Shown piece after piece: positions 6,640 through 15,991 of a stretch of 64,000 bases of DNA (positions are counted from its first letter, which is position 1; each line of letters starts with the position of its first letter). The notes under the pieces are model-generated. The model was not told where the DNA came from. It made no database searches and saw only the letters and a list, made by a program, of their open reading frames with translations. The translations under genes were made by a program, and so were the position numbers. Location of the stretch: IMG/VR virus record IMGVR_UViG_3300037808_002146; one strand, 5' to 3'. This DNA comes from a virus. Lineage: Duplodnaviria > Caudoviricetes.

Positions 6640-6771
6640 GATTTTAGTAATAAATTTTAGGAAGTTTGTCTCTTTTTTTTGCTAACCAGTAGATTTCCTC
6701 TAATAGTTTGTTGACTTGATTGTTTTTTTCTATAATTTTTCTTTGTATTTCTTCCCTAGTCATTTAAGTGC

Positions 6772-7326
6772 CTACAATATTTTCTTAAGTTTACTTAGTT
6801 TTGGATTTTTATCAATAATATATTCTATTTCAATATAAAATCCAAGTTCATCGCCTAATAAGGTTGCTATAATTTCTAGATTTTTAGATTTCCAATACGT
6901 GTTAACAGCATATAATTCCAGTCTAATCGGAGTACACACAGAAAAAGAAATTAGATCATCTATTATTGGATCTTTTACTTCTTTTTGATAAGTGTAGTGA
7001 CCATATTTTTTGTTAAGAACTTTTAATACTTCTCTATACTTCCTTATACAGTTGTAATCATCCATGCCAGATGGGCCGAGGATCAATAGAGATTTAGTAA
7101 CTTTTTTTTTCGAAAAATGTATGTGAAGCTCTGTTTCGAACCCCGCTATATCTTCTTTGCCTAAGTAAATGAGATATCCGTGATCAACATCTCCGTACCA
7201 ATATTTGAAATTTTCAACTTCGGGAGGTATTGTATAAACTTTTTTAGAATCAACACCAACCGGAAAAGCTAACGAAGCATTTGAGAAAACGAAAGAAGCG
7301 AATAGTATTATCAAAAAATTTTTCAT
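6772..7326 (-). CDS. exported hypothetical protein
   Basis: signal peptide (SNASLA), 184 aa. Confidence 0.65.
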   Translation of the reverse strand: MKNFLIILFASFVFSNASLAFPVGVDSKKVYTIPPEVENFKYWYGDVDHGYLIYLGKEDIAGFETELHIHFSKKKVTKSLLILGPSGMDDYNCIRKYREVLKVLNKKYGHYTYQKEVKDPIIDDLISFSVCTPIRLELYAVNTYWKSKNLEIIATLLGDELGFYIEIEYIIDKNPKLSKLKKIL

Positions 7327-7683: not shown

Positions 7684-8994
7684 TTAAGTGGGCGTCATCT
7701 TAAGTGATATTGTCCAATAATGATCAGAATTAGAGTAAGCAGATGTTGCCTTTATGGTATAGTATAAAGATTCGCCTGCAGCTACTGTGTTACCAGAACT
7801 TACAGTGCCCGATAAATCAAACGGCATATCGTTAGTAGCTGTGAGTTCTATGTCAACAATTTTAGTAACGCCTGGATCTGAATCGCTATGAGTACTCCAA
7901 GCATCACCGTATGAAGCGGCCGACATCTTATAGATTGACATTGTTACAGTGTTGTTTGTGTAAGCTCCGCTACCACCTTTTCTTAAGCCCTTGACTTGAT
8001 AACTGTCTAGCGTACAACTGACAGGTACTTGCCAAACGACATAATCCTTGTGATAGCTGTATAGACCGTACTGAAAAGTTGGGTAACTAGTTACTGAATC
8101 AATTGATGTCCAATCAGCTCCGTTTAGCGCAGTTCTATGATAGATATACGAAGTCGACGGACTAGATGTTTGCTTGCCGCGATCAGTAAGTACGAATGTA
8201 TCAGAACCGCCACCTCCGCCCCCAGAAGTCAAATCCGTCTCTGATACATCATATGATTGCCAATATAGCTTACCATCAGATTTAGTATAGAGCCACCCTT
8301 TGCCATCAGCCGGTGCTGAAGGCGTTGCGACTTCAGATGTTATCGCAATCTTACCAGCAACATCTAATTTAGATATAGGGGAGGAAGTACCAATTCCCAC
8401 CTTGCCCCCATTTGTGATGGAAAAACTTTTACCACCACCGGCTGTCGCAGCTTGAAACGCGTAGAAAGAATCAGAGGAACCATCATTTTCTACAGCAAAA
8501 GTAACATTAGAGAAAGTTTGTCCTGAGTTACCTCCATAGATATGTAAGTCGGCTTCCGGAGAAGCGGTCTTAATGCCAATATCTCCAGTGTTTCGATTTG
8601 CTATCAAAACTTCGTTTCCGGAAACGTTATTTGAGTGTCTTTTGATCTCAAAGTTATTGGAAGTGCCGTTATACCCAACAGAATAACCATAAGCCATATC
8701 ACCATTCGCATCAGCCAACTCAGAAAACTGAATCTTTGGTGAGTGCTCTCCTGAATTTACGCCGTTTCCAAGACGTAAGGTCGCATTAGTACCATGAATG
8801 TGAAACTGTTCCTCAGGGGCGTCTGTTCCAACTCCTACCTGACCCGTTTCATCTATAATCATACGTTGAGAGCCAGCGGTATCGAATCTGATCTTATCTT
8901 CGTCTAAAGATTCTTCAACAGTGACTTTGGTGTCGCTATCTTTATCTTCGAGCGTATCTTCTTTAATCCGGTTAGCTTTAATTACTGTTACCAT
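7684..8994 (-). CDS. tail-fibre/virion fibre-like protein
   Basis: repeated G(Q/K)VG(V/I)GTxxP motifs, Gly linker, beta-rich C-terminal domain. Confidence 0.6.
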   Translation of the reverse strand: MVTVIKANRIKEDTLEDKDSDTKVTVEESLDEDKIRFDTAGSQRMIIDETGQVGVGTDAPEEQFHIHGTNATLRLGNGVNSGEHSPKIQFSELADANGDMAYGYSVGYNGTSNNFEIKRHSNNVSGNEVLIANRNTGDIGIKTASPEADLHIYGGNSGQTFSNVTFAVENDGSSDSFYAFQAATAGGGKSFSITNGGKVGIGTSSPISKLDVAGKIAITSEVATPSAPADGKGWLYTKSDGKLYWQSYDVSETDLTSGGGGGGSDTFVLTDRGKQTSSPSTSYIYHRTALNGADWTSIDSVTSYPTFQYGLYSYHKDYVVWQVPVSCTLDSYQVKGLRKGGSGAYTNNTVTMSIYKMSAASYGDAWSTHSDSDPGVTKIVDIELTATNDMPFDLSGTVSSGNTVAAGESLYYTIKATSAYSNSDHYWTISLKMTPT

Positions 8995-9016
8995 AAAATA
9001 CTCCGTTCTAAAATAG

Positions 9017-9064
9017 TAGCTGAGGAGGGACTCGAACCCTCAATCCTCGCGGCGGCAGATTTTA
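9017..9064 (-). tRNA. 3' half of split tRNA-Leu(UAA), positions 34-73
   Basis: TAA-AA-TCTGC, long variable arm, GAGGG-TTCGAGT-CCCTC, CTCAGCT-A; pairs with the 5' half at 9819-9852. Confidence 0.8.
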
Positions 9065-9118
9065 CTTTGTACAAACTATCCTCATTTGGCTCTATGTGGT
9101 TACCTTTTGTACCTTTAT

Positions 9119-9364
9119 TCATTCTTCGCTCTCCTTCAACTCGCTATACCAACAAGGTTCCATATGCGCATGACCCGGGTCATGCGGGTTGGGTATAAAC
9201 TGCGCATCAAGCGATCCATCGCCATCATAATAACAATAAAAAGAACCGGTGGAAATCATATAATAAATTCCCTCTTCCTTACCTTCGAAAGAGTCTCTAT
9301 CGGAGATCTCACCTCTGTATTCTACATGCTTTCCTTTATAGGTCTTTGGGCGGTTATCGCTCAT
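9119..9364 (-). CDS. hypothetical protein inside the tRNA insert
   Basis: likely start MSDNRPK after the GGAG RBS; ORF track 9119..9430. Confidence 0.6.
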   Translation of the reverse strand: MSDNRPKTYKGKHVEYRGEISDRDSFEGKEEGIYYMISTGSFYCYYDGDGSLDAQFIPNPHDPGHAHMEPCWYSELKESEE

Positions 9365-9365
9365 T

Positions 9366-9587
9366 TCATTCTCCTTTCCCCCAACTTCCAAACTCTTCAA
9401 TATATTCTCTTTGAAGTTCAGAGGGGTCAAAATATGAAAGTTGGTCCTTGAACCACCGATATCGTTTATAAACCTCTTTCATCTTGTCAAAAGCAGGATA
9501 AGCAACATTTTCGTCCAAGCAACCTTCGTTAAAGGCAGCCCGCAACTCTTGTCTAATAGCATCAAATTCTTGTTCAGTGATTTTCAT
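9366..9587 (-). CDS. hypothetical protein inside the tRNA insert
   Basis: likely start MKITEQEF; ORF track 9366..9638. Confidence 0.6.
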   Translation of the reverse strand: MKITEQEFDAIRQELRAAFNEGCLDENVAYPAFDKMKEVYKRYRWFKDQLSYFDPSELQREYIEEFGSWGKGE

Positions 9588-9676
9588 TTTCTTTATCCTT
9601 GGACAAAACTTACCCCCCCTAGCACCAATGGTATACACTTTTTGTTTTGCTATATGTCACAGCGCTCCTTAATACA

Positions 9677-9762
9677 TGGTACGGGTAGCCGGACTCGAAC
9701 CGGCAAGATCAAAGATCGAGGCATTTTAAGTGCCTTGCGTATACCAATTCCGCCATACCCGC
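9677..9762 (-). tRNA. tRNA-Leu(UAA), intact, nested in the insert
   Basis: GCGGGTA / TACCCGT-A-CCA acceptor, AGGCA-CT-TAA-AA-TGCCT, long variable arm, TTCGAGT T-loop. Confidence 0.95.
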
Positions 9763-9818
9763 ATATCTCACTTATATCACACTTCAACGCTAGGCTTTGT
9801 ATAACACTTTATAAATAA

Positions 9819-9852
9819 AGTCTGCTGTGTATACCAATTCCACCACCCAGCC
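9819..9852 (-). tRNA. 5' half of split tRNA-Leu(UAA), positions 1-33
   Basis: GGCTGGG-TG-GTGGAATTGGTATACAC-A-GCAGA-CT, then sequence unrelated to tRNA. Confidence 0.8.
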
Positions 9853-9857
9853 TTAAG

Positions 9858-9941
9858 TTATCTTTTTTGAGTAGGGACAATGATCGAAAATCCAAGCCAC
9901 ATTACAAAACCTACGCACAGTATCGCAAATATTTCTATCAT
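9858..9941 (-). CDS. small membrane peptide (27 aa)
   Basis: MIEIFAILCVGFVMWLGFSIIVPTQKR; ATGA overlap with the HAD gene. Confidence 0.5.
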   Translation of the reverse strand: MIEIFAILCVGFVMWLGFSIIVPTQKR

Positions 9942-10411
9942 TTCTTCATCTTTTTATTCTTTAATCCTTCTAAATAATCAAACTGCATTTTTTGAAGATT
10001 GCATGTAAAAAATGGATCAGCTTTTTCAAAAGCTGATAGATATTTTTCGCTCATAACAGGTTGGAATACTTGAATATCATGATCTTTCAGTAACTTAACA
10101 TAGTACGGATTATCATCAAAAAAGATCTTTATATCATATCTTTTAAGGAGGCTTAACTTGTGGTATGCCATCTTTTCAAAATGCTCTAAGCTCATATCTT
10201 TCTTTTCATACTCAAACCCGCACAAGATATCGTCATAATCGCTGTCTATATAAAGACCTAATTTTTCTAAATCTCTAAGAATCTCTTCTCGCTGTGAAGC
10301 TGGAGTACCTGTAACAATATAAACTCTGCCATGCGACCATCCTTTAATCAAAGCCCTAAAAAAATCGGGAGCATATGATATAGTGTCGTGAAAATCTAAA
10401 CCAATGTTCAA
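9938..10411 (-). CDS. HAD-superfamily phosphatase
   Basis: motif I LDFHDT, motif II IVTG, motif IV FFDDNP; likely TTG start at 10411 because the ORF-track N-terminus is read-through of tRNA-Arg. Confidence 0.75.
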   Translation of the reverse strand: MNIGLDFHDTISYAPDFFRALIKGWSHGRVYIVTGTPASQREEILRDLEKLGLYIDSDYDDILCGFEYEKKDMSLEHFEKMAYHKLSLLKRYDIKIFFDDNPYYVKLLKDHDIQVFQPVMSEKYLSAFEKADPFFTCNLQKMQFDYLEGLKNKKMKK

Positions 10412-10433
10412 TTTAAGTCCTAAAAAAATAAAG

Positions 10434-10507
<74 letters not shown>

Positions 10508-10546
10508 ATGGACCGGTTTTAAAGGGACCGGCAAACCCTATATTCG

Positions 10547-10927
10547 CTATGCTCCGGAATCGCCACCGGCTCCAGCAGCTCCGTCTGTTTCTTCAACAGC
10601 TTCACCACCAGCGCCAGCATCAGCTTCCTCCTCGACAACTTCACCAGCTGTACCGCCAGCAGCTTCTTCGCTACCAGCATCGGAACCGCCGGCTCCACCA
10701 GCTGCTTCGACTTCTTCCTCGACAGCTTCGCCACCAGCACCGCCGGCAGCCTCTCCCGAGTCATTGTCAGCTTCCACGCCTACATCCGCTTCGGCCTCAA
10801 CTTCGCCCCCCGCGTCTGCAGTCATTTCAACAGCATCGTCTGTCACATCATCATCGTCATCACCGCACCCCGCAAAACCAATTGCAACGCCTAGTACTAA
10901 CGTGATTAAAAATAATAGTTCTCTCAT
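10547..10927 (-). CDS. acidic low-complexity lipoprotein
   Basis: lipobox FAGC followed by GDDDDD and Ala/Gly/Glu repeats, in the style of myxobacterial lipoproteins. Confidence 0.7.
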   Translation of the reverse strand: MRELLFLITLVLGVAIGFAGCGDDDDDVTDDAVEMTADAGGEVEAEADVGVEADNDSGEAAGGAGGEAVEEEVEAAGGAGGSDAGSEEAAGGTAGEVVEEEADAGAGGEAVEETDGAAGAGGDSGA

Positions 10928-10996
10928 ATCAATATCCTCCTTTCATAAAGATTTGCCTACCTTGTAGGACTTTGTTAAAAAAATAATCTGCGTTAC

Positions 10997-11086
10997 TTAG
11001 CGATTCTTTCTGTACCAATCAAAAGCAACCGAACCTAAGAATATAGCTACTCCCAAAGTAGCAACATTAACAAGAAATTCAATCAT
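10997..11086 (-). CDS. small membrane peptide (29 aa)
   Basis: MIEFLVNVATLGVAIFLGSVAFDWYRKNR; ATGA-coupled. Confidence 0.5.
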   Translation of the reverse strand: MIEFLVNVATLGVAIFLGSVAFDWYRKNR

Positions 11087-11253
11087 CTAAACGCTCCTAG
11101 AAAAAACGCTGAAACTATCATATGAACGACGACTGCTAGAGATACTGCATAGATCAAATTCCTATTTTGAGTTGCAGCTACTTCATTCAATCTAATTTTT
11201 TCGCCATTTTCGTCTGCTTGATTTTTAACGTCTCTTACTCTTACTTGTCCCAT
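11083..11253 (-). CDS. small membrane protein (56 aa)
   Basis: GGAG RBS; C-terminal hydrophobic helix. Confidence 0.55.
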   Translation of the reverse strand: MGQVRVRDVKNQADENGEKIRLNEVAATQNRNLIYAVSLAVVVHMIVSAFFLGAFR

Positions 11254-11273
11254 TTACTCCTCCTTCATTATAA

Positions 11274-11350
<77 letters not shown>

Positions 11351-11357
11351 AAAATAG

Positions 11358-11430
11358 TGGGCCACCCCGGACTCGAACCGGGAACCAGCGGATTAAAAGT
11401 CCGATGCGCTACCAATTGCGCCAGTAGCCC
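11358..11430 (-). tRNA. tRNA-Lys(UUU)
   Basis: GGGCTAC acceptor, TCGGA-CT-TTT-AA-TCCGC, TTCGAGT. Confidence 0.92.
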
Positions 11431-11542
11431 TCATATTAATCATATTCATTGTATGTATAAACCGCACTTATGAAATCATAAACGAAATGTGCCAAAAGTA
11501 CGGTAAAAAAAGTTTCCCAAAAACCCATTGCAAATCCTAAAA

Positions 11543-11618
11543 TGGAGCTGGTGATAGGACTTGAACCTACAACCTGCTGATTACAAATCAGCTGCTCTAC
11601 CAATTGAGCTACACCAGC
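11543..11618 (-). tRNA. tRNA-Thr(UGU)
   Basis: GCTGGTG acceptor, GCTGA-TT-TGT-AA-TCAGC, CCA encoded. Confidence 0.95.
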
Positions 11619-11625
11619 TTGTCAA

Positions 11626-12762
11626 TTAGATGACGCACTCTCGAAAAAAGCCGCGACAAACAGTTTGAAAGTATGCTGTGCTTCCTTCTAAATCGGAATG
11701 CATAGTATACAAAACTTTGTGGTCGTTTGCTGCCTTAGCAACTTCAGCTTTCTTCCAAACATCATCTACCATATTATATGCAAATTCTCGCAACTCTTCA
11801 GGTAAAGTGTGAAACATTTTTTCCAACCTTTCGTTACGAATACAATTCATAATGTATTTGTAGCTTAGCTTAGACTTAACCATTTGACCAATGTAATCAA
11901 TATACTTAAACTTAATAAGCTGACCACCTAAGTCCATAACCCAACCTTCGTTATTATGGATGGAGCGGTCGTTAATTTCTTCAATCATTTGATCTAGAGT
12001 CATCATTCGCGCATGAGGTAAAGTAAATAACTCAGAGTTATCGCTAACAAGCATCTCAATGTGCCGAAGAGGTAACTTTGTACCATCGCTAGTATAAGCT
12101 GCTAATAGATACAGCGTTTCCTGACCGTCATAATCGACATGGACCTCGGTGTTCGGGGTAACCAATTCAACTACGACTGAAAGTAAGTCACCTCCAATTG
12201 TATTGTTCATGCGGTTGAAGTCATCTACAGTAAACATAGATAGAGCTTCGATTGAACTAGTAGTTCCGAACTTGCCGCGAGTTGTTGCGCAAAGATCTCC
12301 ATTATGAAGAAAATACTCAATCATATGTCCATCGGCTTTTTCGCGAGCAACATATTCGTTTTGTCCACACTTTTCGCGAAGAGCTTCGTAAGTATTCTCT
12401 GGCAACTCATTAGCATTGAAAAACTTTTCAAAACCCCTTGAAACTAAAGTTGGTACTTCGGTCGTGAAGTTATAAATCAAACCTCGCATTTCCCTAAGCG
12501 GTTGCGACCAACCTCCTTCGACATCGTGAAGCTCGTTATGAGCTTGTCCTGTGTAGTTGAGTAAAATTAAGCCGCGCTCTTCATCGATGTCAAAGCCAAG
12601 TAGCGTACCTGGATTTTCAAAGTCGGTGTGATCTAACTCGAGCAAAGTCTTGAGTTCGCTAGCATGCTTCTTTTTGAAGCTAGCCCACTTCTCTTTTTTA
12701 TCTTGTTGAGTACGAATCTCACTAGTGATGAGTTGAACGATACGGGCGATATTCTTATTCAT
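11626..12762 (-). CDS. RNA ligase, T4 Rnl1-like
   Basis: SRGFEKFFN, nucleotidyltransferase motif I KADG, ELVTP, EGWV, KFK. Confidence 0.85.
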   Translation of the reverse strand: MNKNIARIVQLITSEIRTQQDKKEKWASFKKKHASELKTLLELDHTDFENPGTLLGFDIDEERGLILLNYTGQAHNELHDVEGGWSQPLREMRGLIYNFTTEVPTLVSRGFEKFFNANELPENTYEALREKCGQNEYVAREKADGHMIEYFLHNGDLCATTRGKFGTTSSIEALSMFTVDDFNRMNNTIGGDLLSVVVELVTPNTEVHVDYDGQETLYLLAAYTSDGTKLPLRHIEMLVSDNSELFTLPHARMMTLDQMIEEINDRSIHNNEGWVMDLGGQLIKFKYIDYIGQMVKSKLSYKYIMNCIRNERLEKMFHTLPEELREFAYNMVDDVWKKAEVAKAANDHKVLYTMHSDLEGSTAYFQTVCRGFFRECVI

Positions 12763-12794
12763 GGTTTCTCCATGTTGTTGTTGATTATGATATT

Positions 12795-12823
12795 ATTATG
12801 CCATATATGATTTAGTTTTGCAC
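12795..12823 (-). promoter_or_regulatory. promoter GTGCAA-N17-CATAAT
   Basis: same architecture as the other copies; directly upstream of the RNA ligase. Confidence 0.65.
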
Positions 12824-12828
12824 GAATA

Positions 12829-13245
12829 CTATTTGTTTGTTTGCAGAAAATTAATTACAGGCTTGAATCTAGCGGGATACAAAAACCCAATTTCCGCTAA
12901 AGGTACCCATTTCCATTCATCATGTTCCGGCTTGCCTAAATCTGGGTTAATAGGCAAAAACGGTTGCTTATTCGATATCCTTGCTGCTAAGAAGTAAGTT
13001 GCAGTCTTTCTATTTTGACCGGTACCATATACAATCGAAGGCACAGTAGCACCAGTTAAAATATAGTCAACGCCATCTTGAAGGCCTGTTTCTTCTAAAG
13101 TTTCTCGTATTGCAGCTTCGACATTAGACTCTTCTTTATTGAGTTGACCTTTTGGAAAATCCCAATTAGAATAAGCGCGAAGGCAGAGAATAGTCTTCTC
13201 AGGCCCATAATGATCCACAATGAGTATACCAGCAGAATATTTCAT
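12829..13245 (-). CDS. NUDIX hydrolase (Ap4A hydrolase-like)
   Basis: WDFPKG...EAAIRETLEETG Nudix box. Confidence 0.9.
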   Translation of the reverse strand: MKYSAGILIVDHYGPEKTILCLRAYSNWDFPKGQLNKEESNVEAAIRETLEETGLQDGVDYILTGATVPSIVYGTGQNRKTATYFLAARISNKQPFLPINPDLGKPEHDEWKWVPLAEIGFLYPARFKPVINFLQTNK

Positions 13246-13519: not shown

Positions 13520-15421
13520 TTATGCATCTTTAAATTCTGTATCGACTACATCATCGGTTTGCTCTTGGCTCTCTTCAGCCGATTCAGCCGCAGGCTGTTG
13601 GGATGTAGCCGCGGCTTCTTGCATAGCTTTTTGGTACATTTTAGCCACAGCTTCTTGGACTGTTTTTTCGAACTCATCCAGCATAGCAGCAATCTCTTCA
13701 TGATTATCGGTACCAACTAAAGATTTTGCATTCGTCATGGTAGATCGAAGTTCTTCTAGATCTCCATGTTCCATCTTATCTTCGTGTTCCGACATAGTCT
13801 TTTCGGTTTGATATACCAAACTTTCAAGTTTATTCATGTTATCGATTTGAGTTCTTCTCTCTTGATCTCTTTCTTTGTTAGCTTGAGCATCATTGACCAT
13901 GCTTTGAATCTCATCGTCGGAGAGAGAGCCACCATTCTCTATTACTACACTTTGTTCCTTACCAGTCATTTTATCTTTAGCAGATACGCTAACGATACCA
14001 TTAGCGTCAATGTCGAATGTTACTTCAACCTGAGGAATTCCTCTTGGCGCTGGTGGAATGTCTCCCAACTTGAAATTGCCCAAAGTCTTATTGTCATTTG
14101 CAAACTCTCGTTCTCCTTGGAGAACATGAATATCGACAGCCGACTGGTTATCAGCTGCTGTACTAAATGTTTCAGACTTTTTGCATGGAATCGTCGTGTT
14201 TCTGTCTATGAGCTTAGTCATAACGCCACCCAAGGTTTCAATCCCAAGCGAGAGAGGCGTAACATCTAGCAATAGAATATCATTAACCTCACCAGAAAAT
14301 ACTCCACCTTGGACTGCTGCACCCAATGCGACAACTTCATCCGGATTAACAGAAGAGTTACACTTCTTCCCAAAAAGATCTTCAACAGCTCTTCTCACTA
14401 CGGGCGTTCTAGTAGATCCTCCAACTAGAATAATTTCATCTATTTCAGAGGTATCTAAGTTTGCGTCTTTGAGCGCAGACTTTACAGGCTCTAAAGATCT
14501 TTGTACTAAACCGTCAATCAACTGTTCAAATTTAGATCTCGTTAACGACATATTTAAATGCTTTGGCCCTGATGCGTCTGCAGTTAAAAATGGTAAATTG
14601 ATATCTGTCGACTGTGTACTAGACAATTCAATCTTTGCTTTCTCTGCAGCTTCTTTTAAGCGTTGCATTACCATCGAATCGTTTGAAACATCGACTCCAG
14701 TAGTTTCCTTAAAGTGAGAGACGATGTGATCAATTAAGATATTGTCAAAATCGTCGCCACCCAAGTGCGTATCTCCATTCGTGCTTAAGACTTCTACAAC
14801 TCCGGAGTCTATTTCTAATATAGAGATATCAAAAGTACCGCCGCCTAAATCATAGACGGCAATCTTTTGCTCTCCATTCTTGTCCATTCCATAAGCCAAT
14901 GCTGCGGCTGTTGGTTCGTTGATGATACGCTTAACATCGAGGCCGGCAATTTTTCCAGCATCTCGAGTCGCTTGCCTTTGAGCATCATTAAAGTAAGCGG
15001 GAACTGTGATTACCGCTTCTGTAACTGTTTCACCAAGATAACGTTCTGCGGCCTCTTTTAACTTAGAGAGTACTTGAGCGCTAATTTCCTGAGGAGAATA
15101 ATCTTTATCAGCAATTTTAATCCTGCAAGATCCGTCCTTGGTATTAGTAACTTCGTATGGAACTCTGTTTATCTCTTCTTTCATGTCATCGGTTTTCATC
15201 CCAATGAAACGCTTAGCTGAGAATATTGTTTTATTCGGGTTAGTTACTGCTTGCCTCCTTGCGGTTTGACCTACAAGCCTATCTCCCGTGTCAGTAAAAG
15301 CAACAACTGAAGGTGTTGTCCTACTCCCTTCTTCGTTGTTGATTACTTGTGGATCTCCACCGGAAATAACAGCAACACAAGAGTTTGTTGTTCCTAAATC
15401 GATACCAATAACTTTTGACAT
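13520..15421 (-). CDS. dnaK: molecular chaperone DnaK (Hsp70)
   Basis: [36 protein letters not shown]; full length. Confidence 0.98.
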
Positions 15422-15432
15422 GAGCTTACTCC

Positions 15433-15852
15433 TTAATTAACTTCAATTTTTTTCGTCTTATTAATATTAACATCCTTAACTGGGATGTTCAAGTTAAGAA
15501 TTCCCGCAATATACTCTGCTTGAATACCTTCAACATTGACATCTTTTGGCAGAGCCCAAGAGCGAGAAAACTTATGATAAGAATATTCTTGTCTTAGGGA
15601 ATTTTCATTTTTTCCACAATCGTTTTCTGTCGATACTGTTAAGTTGTTATCAAAAACCTCTATATTAAAATCCCCTCTAGATAAACCAGGCGCTGCGATT
15701 TCAATTCGATATCCTTTATCGTCCCTAGAGACATTTGCCCCAGGGATAGAACTATTTTCGACTATTGAATATTTCTTATTTGGTTTAGCTAACGCATTGA
15801 ACAAACTATCAAATTCTCCAAAAAAACTATCACGAACTATTGGGTTAAACAT
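15433..15852 (-). CDS. small heat-shock protein Hsp20
   Basis: alpha-crystallin pattern APG...[11 protein letters not shown]...[13 protein letters not shown]. Confidence 0.92.
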
Positions 15853-15991
15853 GCTTTTCTCCTTTTTTTATTAATGTGCACATTCTTGGTTGCTCTCAAG
15901 AGAAACCAGTATTAATACGATAAACACCGTTTTTGAGACGAACACTGCTTGAAGTGATTTTTTTTATAAAAAAATAAAAAGTGTAATGATT

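What the first reader, a model, noticed from the sequence alone, without database searches (positions are those of the whole stretch)
9017..9852. tRNA-Leu(UAA) split at U33/U34 by a 754-bp cassette that contains a second, intact tRNA-Leu(UAA)
Seen in the sequence: 9852-9819 is a tRNA 5' half ending GCAGA-CT, and 9064-9017 is a 3' half starting TAA-AA-TCTGC. The halves reconstitute a full Leu cloverleaf (acceptor GGCTGGG/CTCAGCT, perfect anticodon stem, loop CT-TAA-AA). Between them lie a TG-extended -10-like sequence (TGATATAAG), a different intact tRNA-Leu(UAA) (9677-9762), two coupled ORFs, and the start of a third ATGA-coupled frame (MNKGTKGNHIEPNEDSLYKV) that runs straight into the 3' half. 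The insert follows a U and ends in G, as group I introns do, but only about 55 nt of non-coding sequence remains at each end and I found no P7/catalytic core. The 5' junction is a perfect hairpin, ACTTTAT-TT-ATAAAGT, and the 3' junction contains the palindrome TTTGTACAAA. Inference, option (a): this is a protein-dependent spliced or trans-assembled tRNA whose halves are sealed by the neighbouring Rnl1-like ligase. Option (b): it is a DNA cassette that targets the anticodon loop and carries a replacement tRNA so that insertion is neutral. I know of neither arrangement in phages.
Basis: partly seen in the sequence, partly recalled or inferred. Interest (0 to 1): 0.9.

Follow-up and report, generated by a model that had tools for sequence, protein, structure and literature searches.

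The report
Phage tRNA-Leu gene split by cassette
A marine phage's own leucine tRNA gene is cut exactly in its anticodon loop by a 754-base piece of foreign phage DNA that brings a second, working leucine tRNA. The same cut point recurs in at least eight versions of this tRNA in other marine phages, so this is a recurrent, probably mobile, DNA insertion and not a self-splicing intron.

Summary
Minus-strand 9852-9819 and 9064-9017 join into an 82-nt tRNA-Leu(UAA) (ARAGORN). They flank 754 bp containing an intact tRNA-Leu(UAA), two small ORFs and the start of a third. Independent assemblies reproduce the arrangement, so it is not a misassembly.

Three syntenic relatives (L190-L192) carry the same tRNA uninterrupted at the same locus. 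The closest matches the joined halves at 81 of 82 bases, so the window shows an insertion into a resident gene.

The same 3' junction occurs on eight different tRNA-Leu 3' halves, and the same 5' junction on three 5' halves. The insert content varies, and in six of the eight alleles no 5' half has been found: none lies in the 2.6-56 kb of upstream sequence available for five, and the sixth is known only from short contigs.

There is no group I or II signal, and the insert RNA is not unusually structured. Its left end looks like the promoter of the cargo tRNA. Its right end is the 5' leader of a gene family, fused in frame to the tRNA half.

Best reading (0.6): DNA-level in-place replacement of a tRNA gene, spread by an unidentified homing or recombination process. 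This scan has reported similar ribozyme-less tRNA inserts on other DNA.

The parts
9819..9852 (-). 5' half of the resident tRNA-Leu(UAA): positions 1-33, comprising the acceptor 5' strand, the D arm, the anticodon-stem 5' strand and C32 U33.
   Evidence: Read. It joins with 9064-9017 into a tRNA-Leu by ARAGORN. It is identical over 34/34 bases to the 5' part of the uninterrupted tRNA in L190 and L192.
9763..9818 (-). Left end of the insert ('SegA', 56 nt). It is an AT-rich stretch followed by TTATAC-N17-TGTGAT and TGATATAAG. It most likely serves as the promoter and short leader of the cargo tRNA.
   Evidence: Alignment of window, L129 and L163. The first 23 nt are invariant. L163 has a perfect TATAAT 17 nt after TTATAC. 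In IMG/VR this sequence occurs only joined to a 5' half. The promoter role is an inference.
9677..9762 (-). Cargo tRNA-Leu(UAA) ('tRNA-B'), intact, with an encoded CCA end.
   Evidence: ARAGORN and Rfam tRNA at 56.6 bits. The L163 homologue has a compensatory anticodon stem (AGGGG/CCCCT), so the gene appears to be under tRNA constraint.
9588..9676 (-). Spacer ('SegB') between the cargo tRNA and ORF1. Its 3' part (9647-9583) is an intergenic repeat found at other places in related contigs.
   Evidence: BLAST of the window region against related loci: copies in L128 (two), L131 and L134.
9366..9587 (-). ORF1, 73 aa, function unknown. It behaves as a gene cassette.
   Evidence: No significant Pfam or PHROG hit. 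Homologues lie in other contexts near tRNA clusters without any split tRNA.
9119..9364 (-). ORF2, 81 aa, function unknown. It behaves as a gene cassette.
   Evidence: It has 33 related loci. In most of them the DNA homology is limited to this gene alone and there are no tRNA halves.
9065..9122 (-). Right end of the insert ('SegC'). It holds the start codon and 19 codons of a leader module (MNKGTKGNHIEPNEDSL..) that different genes share at the DNA level, followed by TACAAAG.
   Evidence: The same leader heads a 100-aa gene in L130 and a small ORF in L193. L156 and L193 are identical up to GATAGTTTG and then diverge. The last ~27 nt are invariant in eight alleles.
9017..9064 (-). 3' half of the resident tRNA-Leu(UAA): U34 to the discriminator base.
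   Evidence: It differs from the 3' part of the uninterrupted tRNA of L192 by one base (T for C, which turns G6-C67 into G6-U67).
8988..9122 (-). 44-codon fusion frame (leader plus read-through of the 3' half). It is probably a by-product of the joint.
   Evidence: Database homologues are only other leader/3'-half fusions (P0001, P0002). The L129 version stops after 27 codons.
7684..8994 (-). Downstream flank: a tail-fibre-like gene that marks the syntenic locus.
   Evidence: PHROG tail-fibre families. It is 65-67% identical to the genes that follow the uninterrupted tRNA in L190-L192.
9938..10465 (-). Upstream flank: a possible HAD-type phosphatase gene. It is absent from the syntenic relatives.
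   Evidence: Only weak PHROG hits. The nearest Atlas clusters are viral HAD phosphatases, score 0.90, a lead only. The AF2 model is unusable. There is no tblastn match in L190-L192.
11626..12762 (-). Rnl1-family RNA ligase in the tRNA cluster. It is context only and is not shown to act on the halves.
   Evidence: Pfam RNA_lig_T4_1 at E 8e-16. An 88.6% identical copy sits in L190, whose tRNA-Leu is uninterrupted.

Best explanation
A stretch of DNA from another marine phage was inserted between U33 and U34 of this phage's resident tRNA-Leu(UAA) gene. The inserted DNA is a promoter-plus-tRNA-Leu(UAA) unit, two small gene cassettes and the first 19 codons of a leader-bearing gene.

The resident gene is thereby broken into two pieces. 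The cargo tRNA, which has the same anticodon but different stems, takes over decoding. This amounts to an in-place replacement of a tRNA gene.

The two junctions are not private to this genome. They recur at the same nucleotide in many different tRNA-Leu(UAA) alleles and genome backbones. The element (or its junctions) therefore spreads between co-infecting phages, either by a homing-type double-strand-break repair or by recombination anchored in the conserved tRNA core and in shared cassette linkers.

Shown: the insertion, the empty site, recurrence at one site, the variable cargo, and the absence of a ribozyme.

Inferred: that the halves are not rejoined as RNA, that SegA is the cargo tRNA's promoter, and the way the element spreads.
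For: (1) Empty site. L190, L191 and L192 share NUDIX, Rnl1 (88.6% aa), the tRNA cluster and the tail-fibre-like gene (65-67% aa) with the window. They carry an uninterrupted tRNA-Leu(UAA) directly upstream of that gene. L192 equals the joined halves at 81/82 and L190 at 79/82. ORF1, ORF2 and the HAD-like gene are absent from them.

(2) Recurrence. The 3' junction ..GAGGATAGTTTGT(T)ACAAAG|TAAAATCT.. sits on eight distinct 3' halves: window/L128, L121-122, L129, L130/L160, L159, L161, L177 and L156-158. Each has a different acceptor strand and different downstream DNA. The 5' junction AGACT|TTATTTATAAAGTG sits on three 5' halves (window, L129, L163/164), and each is followed by SegA and the cargo tRNA.

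(3) Discordant histories. Between window and L129, SegA plus the cargo tRNA are about 98% identical, but the halves are only about 75% identical. A Logan variant has the same 5' half but a SegA only 87% identical.

(4) Variable cargo. The insert is 754 bp in the window and about 1425 bp in L129, which has an extra 180-aa ORF. ORF1 and ORF2 occur elsewhere as free cassettes.

(5) Orphan 3' halves. No 5' half lies in 2.6 kb (L128), 6 kb (L161, whose only 5'-half-like sequence is a non-matching remnant downstream), 15 kb (G003), 16 kb (L156/L193) or 56 kb (G001) of upstream sequence. L193 has the same leader with another gene body in place of the 3' half.

(6) The right end is the coding leader of a gene family fused in frame to the tRNA half. 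This is what a DNA joint looks like.

(7) No group I/II or other Rfam hit at E<=10 in the window, L129 or L163. The 836-nt transcript folds no better than shuffles (z -1.1).

(8) Published precedents exist for the parts of the idea. Integration can break a tRNA gene while the element supplies a replacement tRNA (PMC10865867). A homing endonuclease drives inheritance of the T4 tRNA region (PMC2330249).
Against: No endonuclease, integrase or transposase was found in or next to the insert in the window, L129 or L163. The spreading mechanism is therefore unknown.

Allele-specific bases lie only 8-10 nt from the junction on both sides: G27-C43 in the window versus A27-T43 in L129. Ordinary homologous recombination or homing with long co-conversion tracts does not easily leave that pattern.

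If the halves are dead, their integrity is surprising:
- all three 5' halves keep the D stem (GTG/CAC or GCG/CGC);
- seven of eight 3' halves keep a perfect T stem, including a double change GAGGG/CCCTC to GCGGG/CCCGC;
- in both loci where both halves are known, all 12 acceptor and anticodon-stem pairs hold;
- the window's halves differ from the intact L192 gene by a single structure-preserving change, while the adjacent spacer differs at 5 of 37 positions.
Confidence: 0.6

Rival explanations
1. A ribozyme-free, protein-dependent intron or split tRNA. The two halves are transcribed and pair through the acceptor and anticodon stems. They are trimmed at U33/U34 by host or phage nucleases and sealed by the phage Rnl1-type ligase (with the HAD-type phosphatase if the ends need healing). 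The resident tRNA-Leu would then remain functional.
For: Both halves keep every tRNA pairing. Across alleles the changes are compensatory: acceptor GGCTGGG/CTCAGCT versus GCCACCA/TGGTGGT, 27-43 G-C versus A-T, and changes in the D stem and T stem.

The junction-proximal bases are invariant. They can extend the anticodon stem by 7 bp (U33-A37 through U+6-A-3), which puts the two junctions 3 bp apart on opposite strands; the helix evaluates at -10.5 kcal/mol.

The break lies in the anticodon loop, where PrrC cuts tRNA-Lys before T4 Pnkp and Rnl1 repair it (PMC3400036); from my own knowledge that cut falls 5' of the wobble base, the same 33/34 position. An Rnl1 gene and a possible HAD phosphatase lie within 2 kb.

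Lak phages have unexplained tRNA inserts, one of which may encode a tRNA (PMC6784885).
Against: No RNA evidence exists. Metatranscriptome contigs cover only ORF1/ORF2 and SegB/cargo tRNA, with no joint.

Rnl1 is equally present in L190, where the tRNA is intact, and was not found in five other records that carry junctions or cassettes, although those are fragments.

A cargo tRNA with the same anticodon makes the resident tRNA dispensable.

Most 3' halves have no 5' partner within up to 56 kb.

The 3' 'splice site' is inside a protein-coding leader shared with ordinary genes. The conserved left end is explained more simply as a promoter.

No endonuclease that would cut at both junctions is known in bacteria or phages. 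The extension helix is AU-rich, invariant (so no covariation test is possible) and was found post hoc.
Confidence: 0.17
2. A one-off illegitimate recombination scar. Its junctions were later carried into other genomes only by general homologous recombination. There would be no dedicated targeting or drive, and the halves would be decaying pseudogene pieces.
For: The right end is a truncated gene start and the left end a promoter; both are ordinary genomic DNA. These phages shuffle small cassettes through conserved linkers, as T4-type phages do with PeSL elements (PMC2839356). A decayed 5'-half-like remnant exists in L161, and L177 has an A-C mismatch in its T stem.
Against: Eight 3'-half alleles and three 5'-half alleles share exactly the same junction nucleotide. 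Allele differences start 8-10 nt from the junction, which leaves too little homology for ordinary crossovers between the junction and the first difference. Apart from the single L177 mismatch, none of the 3' halves has lost its tRNA-like pairing.
Confidence: 0.15
3. A group I (or group II) self-splicing intron whose core is hidden among the ORFs and the inner tRNA.
For: The insert follows a U and ends in G. About 200 nt of non-coding sequence remain in three blocks. tRNA-Leu(UAA) is the classic host of a bacterial group I intron (own knowledge).
Against: There is no Intron_gpI or group II hit at E<=10 in three loci. The candidate P1 pairs the splice-site U with A, not G. Only the first 23 and last ~27 nt are conserved between alleles, and the middle is replaced wholesale. 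The fold z-score is -1.1. In cyanobacteria the intron sits at 34/35, not 33/34 (own knowledge).
Confidence: 0.02

Closest known systems
'Enigmatic' introns in tRNA genes of Lak megaphages, including a tRNA-Thr insert that may itself encode a tRNA (Devoto et al. 2019, PMC6784885; read)
   Same: A phage tRNA gene is interrupted by a non-ribozyme insert. The insert can contain a tRNA-like gene. There is presence/absence polymorphism between related phages. The insert sequence is highly conserved where present.
   Different: The Lak inserts are short and carry no ORFs. They occur in gut megaphages. Their position was set by tRNAscan eukaryotic settings, and no mechanism is known. Here the insert is 0.75-1.4 kb or more, with a promoter, a same-anticodon tRNA and protein cassettes, and many relatives keep only the 3' half.
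tRNA-dependent lysogeny of actinobacteriophages (Guerrero-Bustamante and Hatfull 2024, PMC10865867)
   Same: [quoted passage not shown]
   Different: In that system a tyrosine integrase acts on a ~10-bp attP/attB core in a bacterial chromosome, and the element is a whole prophage. Here the target is a phage's own tRNA gene, no integrase was found, no repeat longer than 1 nt flanks the insert, and the element is under 1.5 kb.
Free-standing homing endonuclease SegB in the T4 tRNA gene cluster (Brok-Volchanskaya et al. 2008, PMC2330249)
   Same: Selfish spread of a tRNA-region segment between co-infecting related phages. Conserved tRNA gene sequence serves as the target, and the recipient's markers are lost.
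   Different: SegB is a GIY-YIG enzyme encoded in the transferred segment, and it recognises the T-stem-loop DNA. Here no endonuclease gene is recognisable and the break is in the anticodon loop.
Group I intron of cyanobacterial and plastid tRNA-Leu(UAA), and the tRNA-fMet intron encoding I-Ssp6803I (own knowledge)
   Same: The same tRNA species and the same loop are interrupted. The insert begins after U and ends in G. It is mobile between alleles.
   Different: Those are ribozymes of about 250-650 nt with a conserved core, located at 34/35. No core is present here.
Split tRNA genes of Nanoarchaeum equitans, and T4 Pnkp/Rnl1 repair of PrrC-cut tRNA-Lys (reviewed in PMC3400036)
   Same: Separate 5' and 3' half genes whose stems match. 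A ligase family is known to seal anticodon-loop breaks, and a member is encoded nearby.
   Different: The archaeal halves are joined by a BHB-specific splicing endonuclease plus RtcB, neither of which is known in phages. T4 repair acts on a cleaved mature tRNA, not on gene pieces. No joined RNA has been seen here.
PeSL-mediated modular shuffling in T4-type phages (Arbiol et al. 2010, PMC2839356; listed, not read further)
   Same: Small ORF cassettes are gained, lost and replaced through short conserved regulatory or linker sequences in hyperplastic regions.
   Different: The linkers here are RBS-plus-N-terminal leader modules and an intergenic repeat, not promoter-stem-loops. PeSL shuffling has not been reported to split a tRNA gene.

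Membership tests
Group I intron | Conserved catalytic core (P3-P9, with P4-P6 and the P7 G-binding site) detectable by a covariance model. | tested here: not met
   Rfam 15 cmscan with permissive filters at E<=10 gave no Intron_gpI hit in window 8000-13000, L129 or L163. The fold of the 836-nt transcript has z -1.1.
Group I intron | A U-G wobble at the 5' splice site in P1, and a terminal G. | tested here: not met
   The terminal G is present. In the only hairpin that includes the 5' junction, the splice-site U pairs with A (ACTTTAT/ATAAAGT).
Group II intron | Six-domain RNA with domain V, usually with a reverse-transcriptase ORF. | tested here: not met
   No group II Rfam hit. ORF1 and ORF2 have no RT domain.
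Archaeal/eukaryal-type tRNA intron (BHB substrate) | A bulge-helix-bulge motif: two 3-nt bulges that carry the cut sites, separated by a 4-bp helix. | tested here: not met
   Hand pairing and evaluation give a continuous 7-bp extension of the anticodon stem. The two junctions are 3 bp apart and there are no bulges.
Archaeal/eukaryal-type tRNA intron (BHB substrate) | A splicing endonuclease (EndA/Sen family) is available. | not tested
   No whole genome is held for the window or the host. None is known in bacteria or phages (own knowledge).
Homing-endonuclease-driven mobile insert | Presence/absence polymorphism at one precise site in otherwise homologous genes. | tested here: met
   The tRNA is uninterrupted in L190-L192 and interrupted in the window, L195 and L128. 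The same site is used in 8 (3') and 3 (5') alleles.
Homing-endonuclease-driven mobile insert | An endonuclease gene (LAGLIDADG, GIY-YIG, HNH, PD-(D/E)XK ...) in or beside the insert. | tested here: not met
   Pfam, PHROGs and NCBIfam give no nuclease domain for ORF1, ORF2, the L129 extra ORF or the neighbouring ORFs in the window, L129 and L163. An HNH gene next to tRNA-Ile in L183/L184 is not linked to a split tRNA.
Integrase-mediated insertion into a tRNA gene (including tRNA-dependent lysogeny) | A tyrosine or serine recombinase, and a common core repeated at both ends. | tested here: not met
   No integrase domain was found. Only a single T could be duplicated at the ends.
Integrase-mediated insertion into a tRNA gene (including tRNA-dependent lysogeny) | [quoted passage not shown] | tested here: met
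   The cargo tRNA-Leu(UAA) follows the 5' junction in all three alleles. Whether it actually compensates was not tested.
Split tRNA (trans-assembled halves) | The halves are complementary in the acceptor and anticodon stems. | tested here: met
   Window 7+5 pairs and L129 7+5 pairs, with different sequences.
Split tRNA (trans-assembled halves) | A mature joined tRNA exists. | tested here: inconclusive
   RNA-run contigs show no joint, but they are Logan contigs of metatranscriptomes that hardly sample tRNAs. The joined form seen in DNA runs has only 30 matching letters on one side, and the shared tRNA core is common in viral contigs, so it most likely comes from other phages' intact genes.
T4-type tRNA repair module (Pnkp + Rnl1) | An Rnl1-family ligase. 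| tested here: met
   Pfam RNA_lig_T4_1 at E 8e-16 and PHROG 562 at E 7e-26. The score is below the NCBIfam equivalog cut-off (28 versus 242 bits).
T4-type tRNA repair module (Pnkp + Rnl1) | A kinase plus DxDxT phosphatase (Pnkp). | tested here: inconclusive
   The gene at 9938-10465 has a DFHDT motif. Its hits are only weak: PHROG 415 at E 0.005, and Atlas neighbours that are viral HAD phosphatases at 0.90. There is no kinase domain, and the AF2 model has pLDDT 48.

The most novel reading that the evidence does not exclude
The interrupted gene is still a working tRNA gene. The phage makes tRNA-Leu(UAA) from two RNA pieces, cut at U33/U34 from a ribozyme-free precursor or from separate transcripts. 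The pieces are held together by the acceptor and extended anticodon helices and sealed by its Rnl1-type ligase. That would be a protein-only tRNA splicing or assembly pathway in a bacterial virus.
Probability: 0.15. Interest if true: 0.9.

Novelty: new variant of a known kind. Interest (0 to 1): 0.55.

Why it matters
tRNA genes are the most conserved DNA shared by otherwise unrelated phages. This case shows that conserved core being used again and again, at a single nucleotide, as the landing site for foreign DNA that brings its own substitute tRNA.

If the spread is driven, it defines a small selfish element that needs neither an intron ribozyme nor a recognisable nuclease, and it points to an unknown enzyme that recognises the anticodon-loop DNA of tRNA-Leu(UAA).

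If the halves are instead rejoined as RNA, it would be the first protein-only tRNA splicing or assembly in the bacterial world, and it would give phage Rnl1 ligases a second job.

In either case, annotation pipelines will miss the broken gene and the orphan halves. Counts of phage tRNAs and arguments about codon usage or anti-defence roles should allow for replaced and dead tRNA genes.

Tried and rejected
- Misassembly: rejected.
- Group I/II intron: rejected.
- Empty site or other copies by exact junction strings specific to the window allele in IMG/VR: nothing found. Looser junction patterns then found L159-L161 and L163/L164.
- SegA without a 5' half: only chance matches in AT-rich giant-virus contigs.
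- 5' halves for the orphan 3' halves: none found in L128, L130, L160/G001, L159/G003, L161/G002 or L156/L193. The searches used the D-arm motif and allele-specific acceptor/anticodon-stem patterns.
- 3' half for L163/L164: both contigs end just after the cargo tRNA.
- Conserved structure in SegC plus the 3' half: RNAalifold gave only the T stem with covariation. The other proposed pairs are invariant or broken in some alleles.
- Motif GTTDTACAAAG as a general cassette-boundary site: not enriched in the window. The leader occurs only once in the window.
- Link between Rnl1 and split tRNAs: no Rnl1 in five related records, but four of the five are fragments.
- RNA evidence: two metatranscriptomes and two other runs gave no junction or spliced contig.
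- Nuclease or recombinase in or near the insert: none found.
- HAD-like protein fold: the single-sequence AF2 model was too poor to search. No PDB sequence match.
- Exact look-up of the HAD-like protein, to find population variants: not on record.
- tmRNA-like or other RNA role for the halves: no Rfam support.
Full report
**1. What is in the window**

On the minus strand, 9852-9819 reads GGCTGGGTGGTGGAATTGGTATACACAGCAGACT and 9064-9017 reads TAAAATCTGC...CTCAGCTA. ARAGORN does not call either piece on its own. It calls their in-silico junction a tRNA-Leu(taa) of 82 nt, with a 7-bp acceptor stem (two G-U pairs), a D arm, a perfect 5-bp anticodon stem, loop CTTAAAA, a short variable arm and a T arm.

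The 754 bp between the pieces contain, in order:
- a 56-nt AT-rich stretch (SegA, 9818-9763);
- an intact tRNA-Leu(UAA) with encoded CCA (9762-9677);
- an 89-nt spacer;
- ORF1 (9587-9366, 73 aa);
- ORF2 (9364-9119, 81 aa);
- an ATGA-coupled third frame (from 9122) that runs through the junction into the 3' half.

The arrangement is not an assembly artefact. A 40-kb ENA contig from another sample (L195) matches 8990-9880 at 890 of 891 bases. L196 crosses the 5' junction, and a JGI contig has the same gene order. Logan contigs from four studies cover both junctions. About 17 marine DNA runs from some 14 studies hold the stretch.

**2. It is not a ribozyme intron**

Rfam searches with permissive filters and E up to 10 found only the ordinary tRNAs in window 8000-13000, L129 and L163. 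There was no group I or group II hit. The whole 836-nt transcript folds no better than shuffled sequence (z -1.1). The only hairpin that includes the 5' junction pairs the splice-site U with A and is worth -2.7 kcal/mol. The interior is replaced wholesale between relatives (section 4), which a catalytic core would not tolerate.

**3. The empty site**

Homologues of the downstream tail-fibre-like protein led to three contigs (L190, L191, L192) that are syntenic with the window:
- NUDIX, 54% aa identity;
- Rnl1, 88.6%;
- a tRNA cluster;
- tRNA-Arg(tct);
- the tail-fibre-like gene, 65-67%;
- the next conserved ORF, 83%.

In all three, an uninterrupted tRNA-Leu(UAA) sits directly upstream of the tail-fibre-like gene. 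The L192 gene equals the window's joined halves at 81 of 82 positions; the one difference turns G6-C67 into G6-U67. The L190 gene matches at 79 of 82, with two further differences in the variable loop. ORF1, ORF2 and the HAD-like gene 9938-10465 have no counterpart in these contigs. The window therefore shows an insertion into a resident tRNA gene. Its lineage has also gained the HAD-like gene between tRNA-Arg and tRNA-Leu, which abut in L190.

**4. The same junctions occur elsewhere**

Searching with ORF2, with junction patterns and with the fusion peptide gave the following.

*3' junction.* The sequence ..CCAARTGAGGATAGTTTGT(T)ACAAAG|TAAAATCT.. is found on eight different 3' halves:

| Allele (loci) | Distinguishing sequence |
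|---|---|
| window / L128 / L195 | ..TCTGC..CTCAGCT |
| L121 / L122 | ..CCTAGCT, with quite different DNA downstream |
| L129 | TCTGT..TGGTGGTACCA |
| L130 / L160 | ..TCCGAGTACCA, then tRNA-Ile |
| L159 | TCTCT..TCTCGGT, then tRNA-Ile |
| L161 | T stem GCGGG/CCCGC, CTTCGGTACCA |
| L177 | CGGGTCCACCA, between two terminators |
| L156-158 | TCTCT..CTCTGGTACCA |

Homology between these loci ends at the 3' end of the tRNA. Each one therefore looks like the remaining part of that genome's own tRNA-Leu gene.

*5' junction.* The sequence AGACT|TTATTTATAAAGTG is found on three 5' halves: window GGCTGGG.., L129 GCCACCA.. and L163/L164 GCCGGGT... Each is followed by SegA and a homologue of the cargo tRNA. 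In IMG/VR the start of SegA occurs only in this joined form.

*L129.* This locus carries both halves 1425 bp apart, with an extra 180-aa ORF in the insert. Its halves are complementary to each other (acceptor GCCACCA/TGGTGGT, anticodon stem ACAGA/TCTGT) but only about 75% identical to the window's halves. Its SegA and cargo tRNA are about 98% identical to the window's.

*Other variants.* A Logan variant shows the opposite pattern: the same 5' half, but a SegA only 87% identical. In L163 the first 23 nt of SegA are identical, while the rest of SegA and the cargo tRNA have diverged. That cargo tRNA has a compensatory anticodon stem.

Insert and tRNA allele thus have separate histories, as expected for something that moves or recombines at the junctions.

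**5. What the ends of the insert are**

*Right end.* SegC is the ribosome-binding site, start codon and first 19 codons of a leader module (MNKDTKGNHxEPxEDSL) that unrelated genes share at the DNA level. It heads a 100-aa gene in L130 and a small ORF in L193. L156 and L193 are identical up to GATAGTTTG; L156 then continues with TACAAAG plus the 3' half, while L193 continues with another gene body. ORF2 is a free cassette: in most of its 33 related loci only the gene itself is homologous, and there are no tRNA halves.

*Left end.* The left end reads as a promoter for the cargo tRNA: AT-rich DNA, then TTATAC, 17 nt, and TGTGAT in the window and L129 or a perfect TATAAT in L163. This role is my inference. 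The simple sigma-70 scan did not list it.

The insert therefore looks like an ordinary piece of another phage's tRNA and cassette region, from the upstream edge of a tRNA promoter to codon 19 of a downstream gene.

**6. Orphan halves**

| Allele (loci) | Upstream sequence searched |
|---|---|
| L128 | 2.6 kb |
| L161 | 6 kb |
| L159 (G003) | 15 kb |
| L156 / L193 | 16 kb |
| L160 (G001) | 56 kb |

In five of the eight 3'-half alleles, no 5' half is present in the upstream sequence available. A sixth allele (L121/L122) is known only from contigs of about 0.6 kb, which cannot show it either way. L161 carries a decayed 5'-half-like remnant, GCCGCCCAGTGGAATTGGTATACTGCGTGGACTT, that does not match its 3' half. 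These genomes are fragments, so a partner elsewhere is not excluded. The simplest reading is that the 3' halves are leftovers.

**7. Arguments for and against rejoining at the RNA level**

*For.*
- Every half keeps its internal pairings: D stem GTG/CAC or GCG/CGC, and T stem perfect in seven of eight alleles, including the double change GAGGG/CCCTC to GCGGG/CCCGC.
- In both loci where both halves are known, all 12 inter-half pairs hold.
- The window's halves differ from the intact L192 gene by one conservative change, while the 37-nt spacer after the gene differs at five positions.
- The invariant bases next to the junctions can extend the anticodon stem by seven pairs, which places the two junctions 3 bp apart on opposite strands.
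- The break lies in the anticodon loop, where PrrC cuts tRNA-Lys before T4 Pnkp and Rnl1 repair it (PMC3400036); from my own knowledge that cut falls 5' of the wobble base, the same 33/34 position. An Rnl1 gene lies 1.8 kb away.

*Against.*
- The Rnl1 gene is equally present next to the uninterrupted tRNA in L190.
- The HAD-like protein could not be confirmed beyond weak leads.
- The cargo tRNA makes the resident one dispensable.
- Orphan halves are common.
- The '3' splice site' is part of a coding leader.
- The helix is AU-rich and invariant, so it cannot be tested by covariation.
- The available metatranscriptome contigs show only ORF1/ORF2 and SegB/cargo-tRNA pieces, with no joint.
- The joined form seen in DNA runs has only 30 matching letters on one side. 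It most likely comes from other phages' intact genes, which are common: at least 120 IMG/VR contigs carry the same anticodon arm.

**8. How the element spreads**

No endonuclease, integrase or transposase domain was found in or beside the insert in the window, L129 or L163. No repeat longer than one T flanks the insert. Allele-specific bases begin 8-10 nt from the junction on both sides. This argues against ordinary crossovers. It favours either a site-specific process with very short conversion tracts, or long persistence of a split gene under selection. I cannot decide between these with the data at hand.

**9. Comparison with what is known**

The closest published cases are:
- the unexplained tRNA 'introns' of Lak megaphages, one of which may encode a tRNA (PMC6784885);
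- tRNA-dependent lysogeny, where an integrating phage breaks a host tRNA gene and supplies its own copy (PMC10865867);
- SegB-driven inheritance of the T4 tRNA region (PMC2330249);
- cassette shuffling through conserved linkers in T4-type phages (PMC2839356).

Earlier notes of this scan describe similar ribozyme-less inserts and nested tRNA genes on other DNA. They gave me these literature leads but are not evidence.

The present case differs in four ways. It is a same-anticodon tRNA plus protein cassettes inside a phage's own tRNA gene. It has an exact empty-site control. It recurs on eight alleles. No mobility gene is recognisable.

**10. Verdict**

| Reading | Probability |
|---|---|
| Protein-mediated rejoining of the halves | about 0.17 |
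| Passive recombination scar | about 0.15 |
| Ribozyme intron | about 0.02 |

The observation itself is confirmed. Novelty: a new variant of a known kind. Interest: 0.55.

Noticed in passing
window 9938-10465 (-), compared with L190 3503-3664: A 159-175-aa gene with an N-terminal DFHDT motif lies between tRNA-Arg(tct) and the split tRNA-Leu. It may be a viral HAD-type phosphatase. In the syntenic relative L190 the two tRNAs are 2 nt apart, so this gene is a second lineage-specific insertion right beside the first.
   Followed up: partly
L130 5691-5990; L193 about 15836-15910; L156 6001-6060; window 9065-9122: The leader module ATGAATAAAGATACAAAAGGTAACCAC..GAGGATAGTTTG (MNKDTKGNHxEPxEDSL) is conserved at the nucleotide level in front of unrelated gene bodies in several marine phage contigs. 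It probably acts as a recombination linker.
   Followed up: partly
L130 about 6760-6840 and the same place in L160: Just after a TATAAT-like box there is an orphan T-arm-like element, ..GGCGCGGGTTCAAATCCTGTCACGACCA. ARAGORN does not call it as a tRNA. It could be a tRNA-like or tmRNA-like RNA.
   Followed up: no
L161, about 2.5 kb downstream of its 3' half (record G002 around 17728): A decayed 5'-half-like sequence, GCCGCCCAGTGGAATTGGTATACTGCGTGGACTT. Its stems do not match the nearby 3' half. It is evidence that broken tRNA-Leu pieces persist and decay in these phages.
   Followed up: partly
L191 56-138, compared with L121/L122 3' halves: The intact tRNA-Leu of L191 has A5 opposite C68, a mismatch. 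The split allele in L121/L122 has T68, which would pair with A5. This could be a compensatory change caught half-way, or a recombinant.
   Followed up: no
L183 725-1204 and L184 599-1078: An HNH endonuclease gene (weak Pfam HNH / HNH_3) lies directly upstream of a tRNA-Ile(tat) and an ORF1 homologue. It is a candidate free-standing homing endonuclease in the tRNA region of a related phage.
   Followed up: no
window 13520-15421 (-) and the neighbouring ORFs (L195 1911-4243): The phage encodes a full-length DnaK/Hsp70 homologue, about 56-59% identical to the DnaK/Hsp70 sequences it matched in the phage collection. The corresponding ORF in contig L195 is annotated with Pfam HSP70. It lies next to an Hsp20 gene and upstream of the NUDIX and Rnl1 genes.
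   Followed up: partly
L156 1859-3237, which equals L193 11691-13069: A MunI-like restriction endonuclease and a D12-class adenine methyltransferase sit as a pair inside the long array of small ORF cassettes upstream of an orphan 3' half.
   Followed up: no
L177 (contig CAYSED010000179.1, binned as a Hyphomonadaceae MAG): A 2.75-kb contig with the phage leader and 3'-half junction is included in a bacterial MAG. This is probably a binning artefact, though it could be a host hint.
   Followed up: no
G005 and G006 (the IMG/VR records that hold L163 and L164): Two long viral contigs (89 and 115 kb) both end within 150 bp after the 5' junction and cargo tRNA. This suggests that assemblers break here because of repeats or population heterogeneity.
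   Followed up: partly
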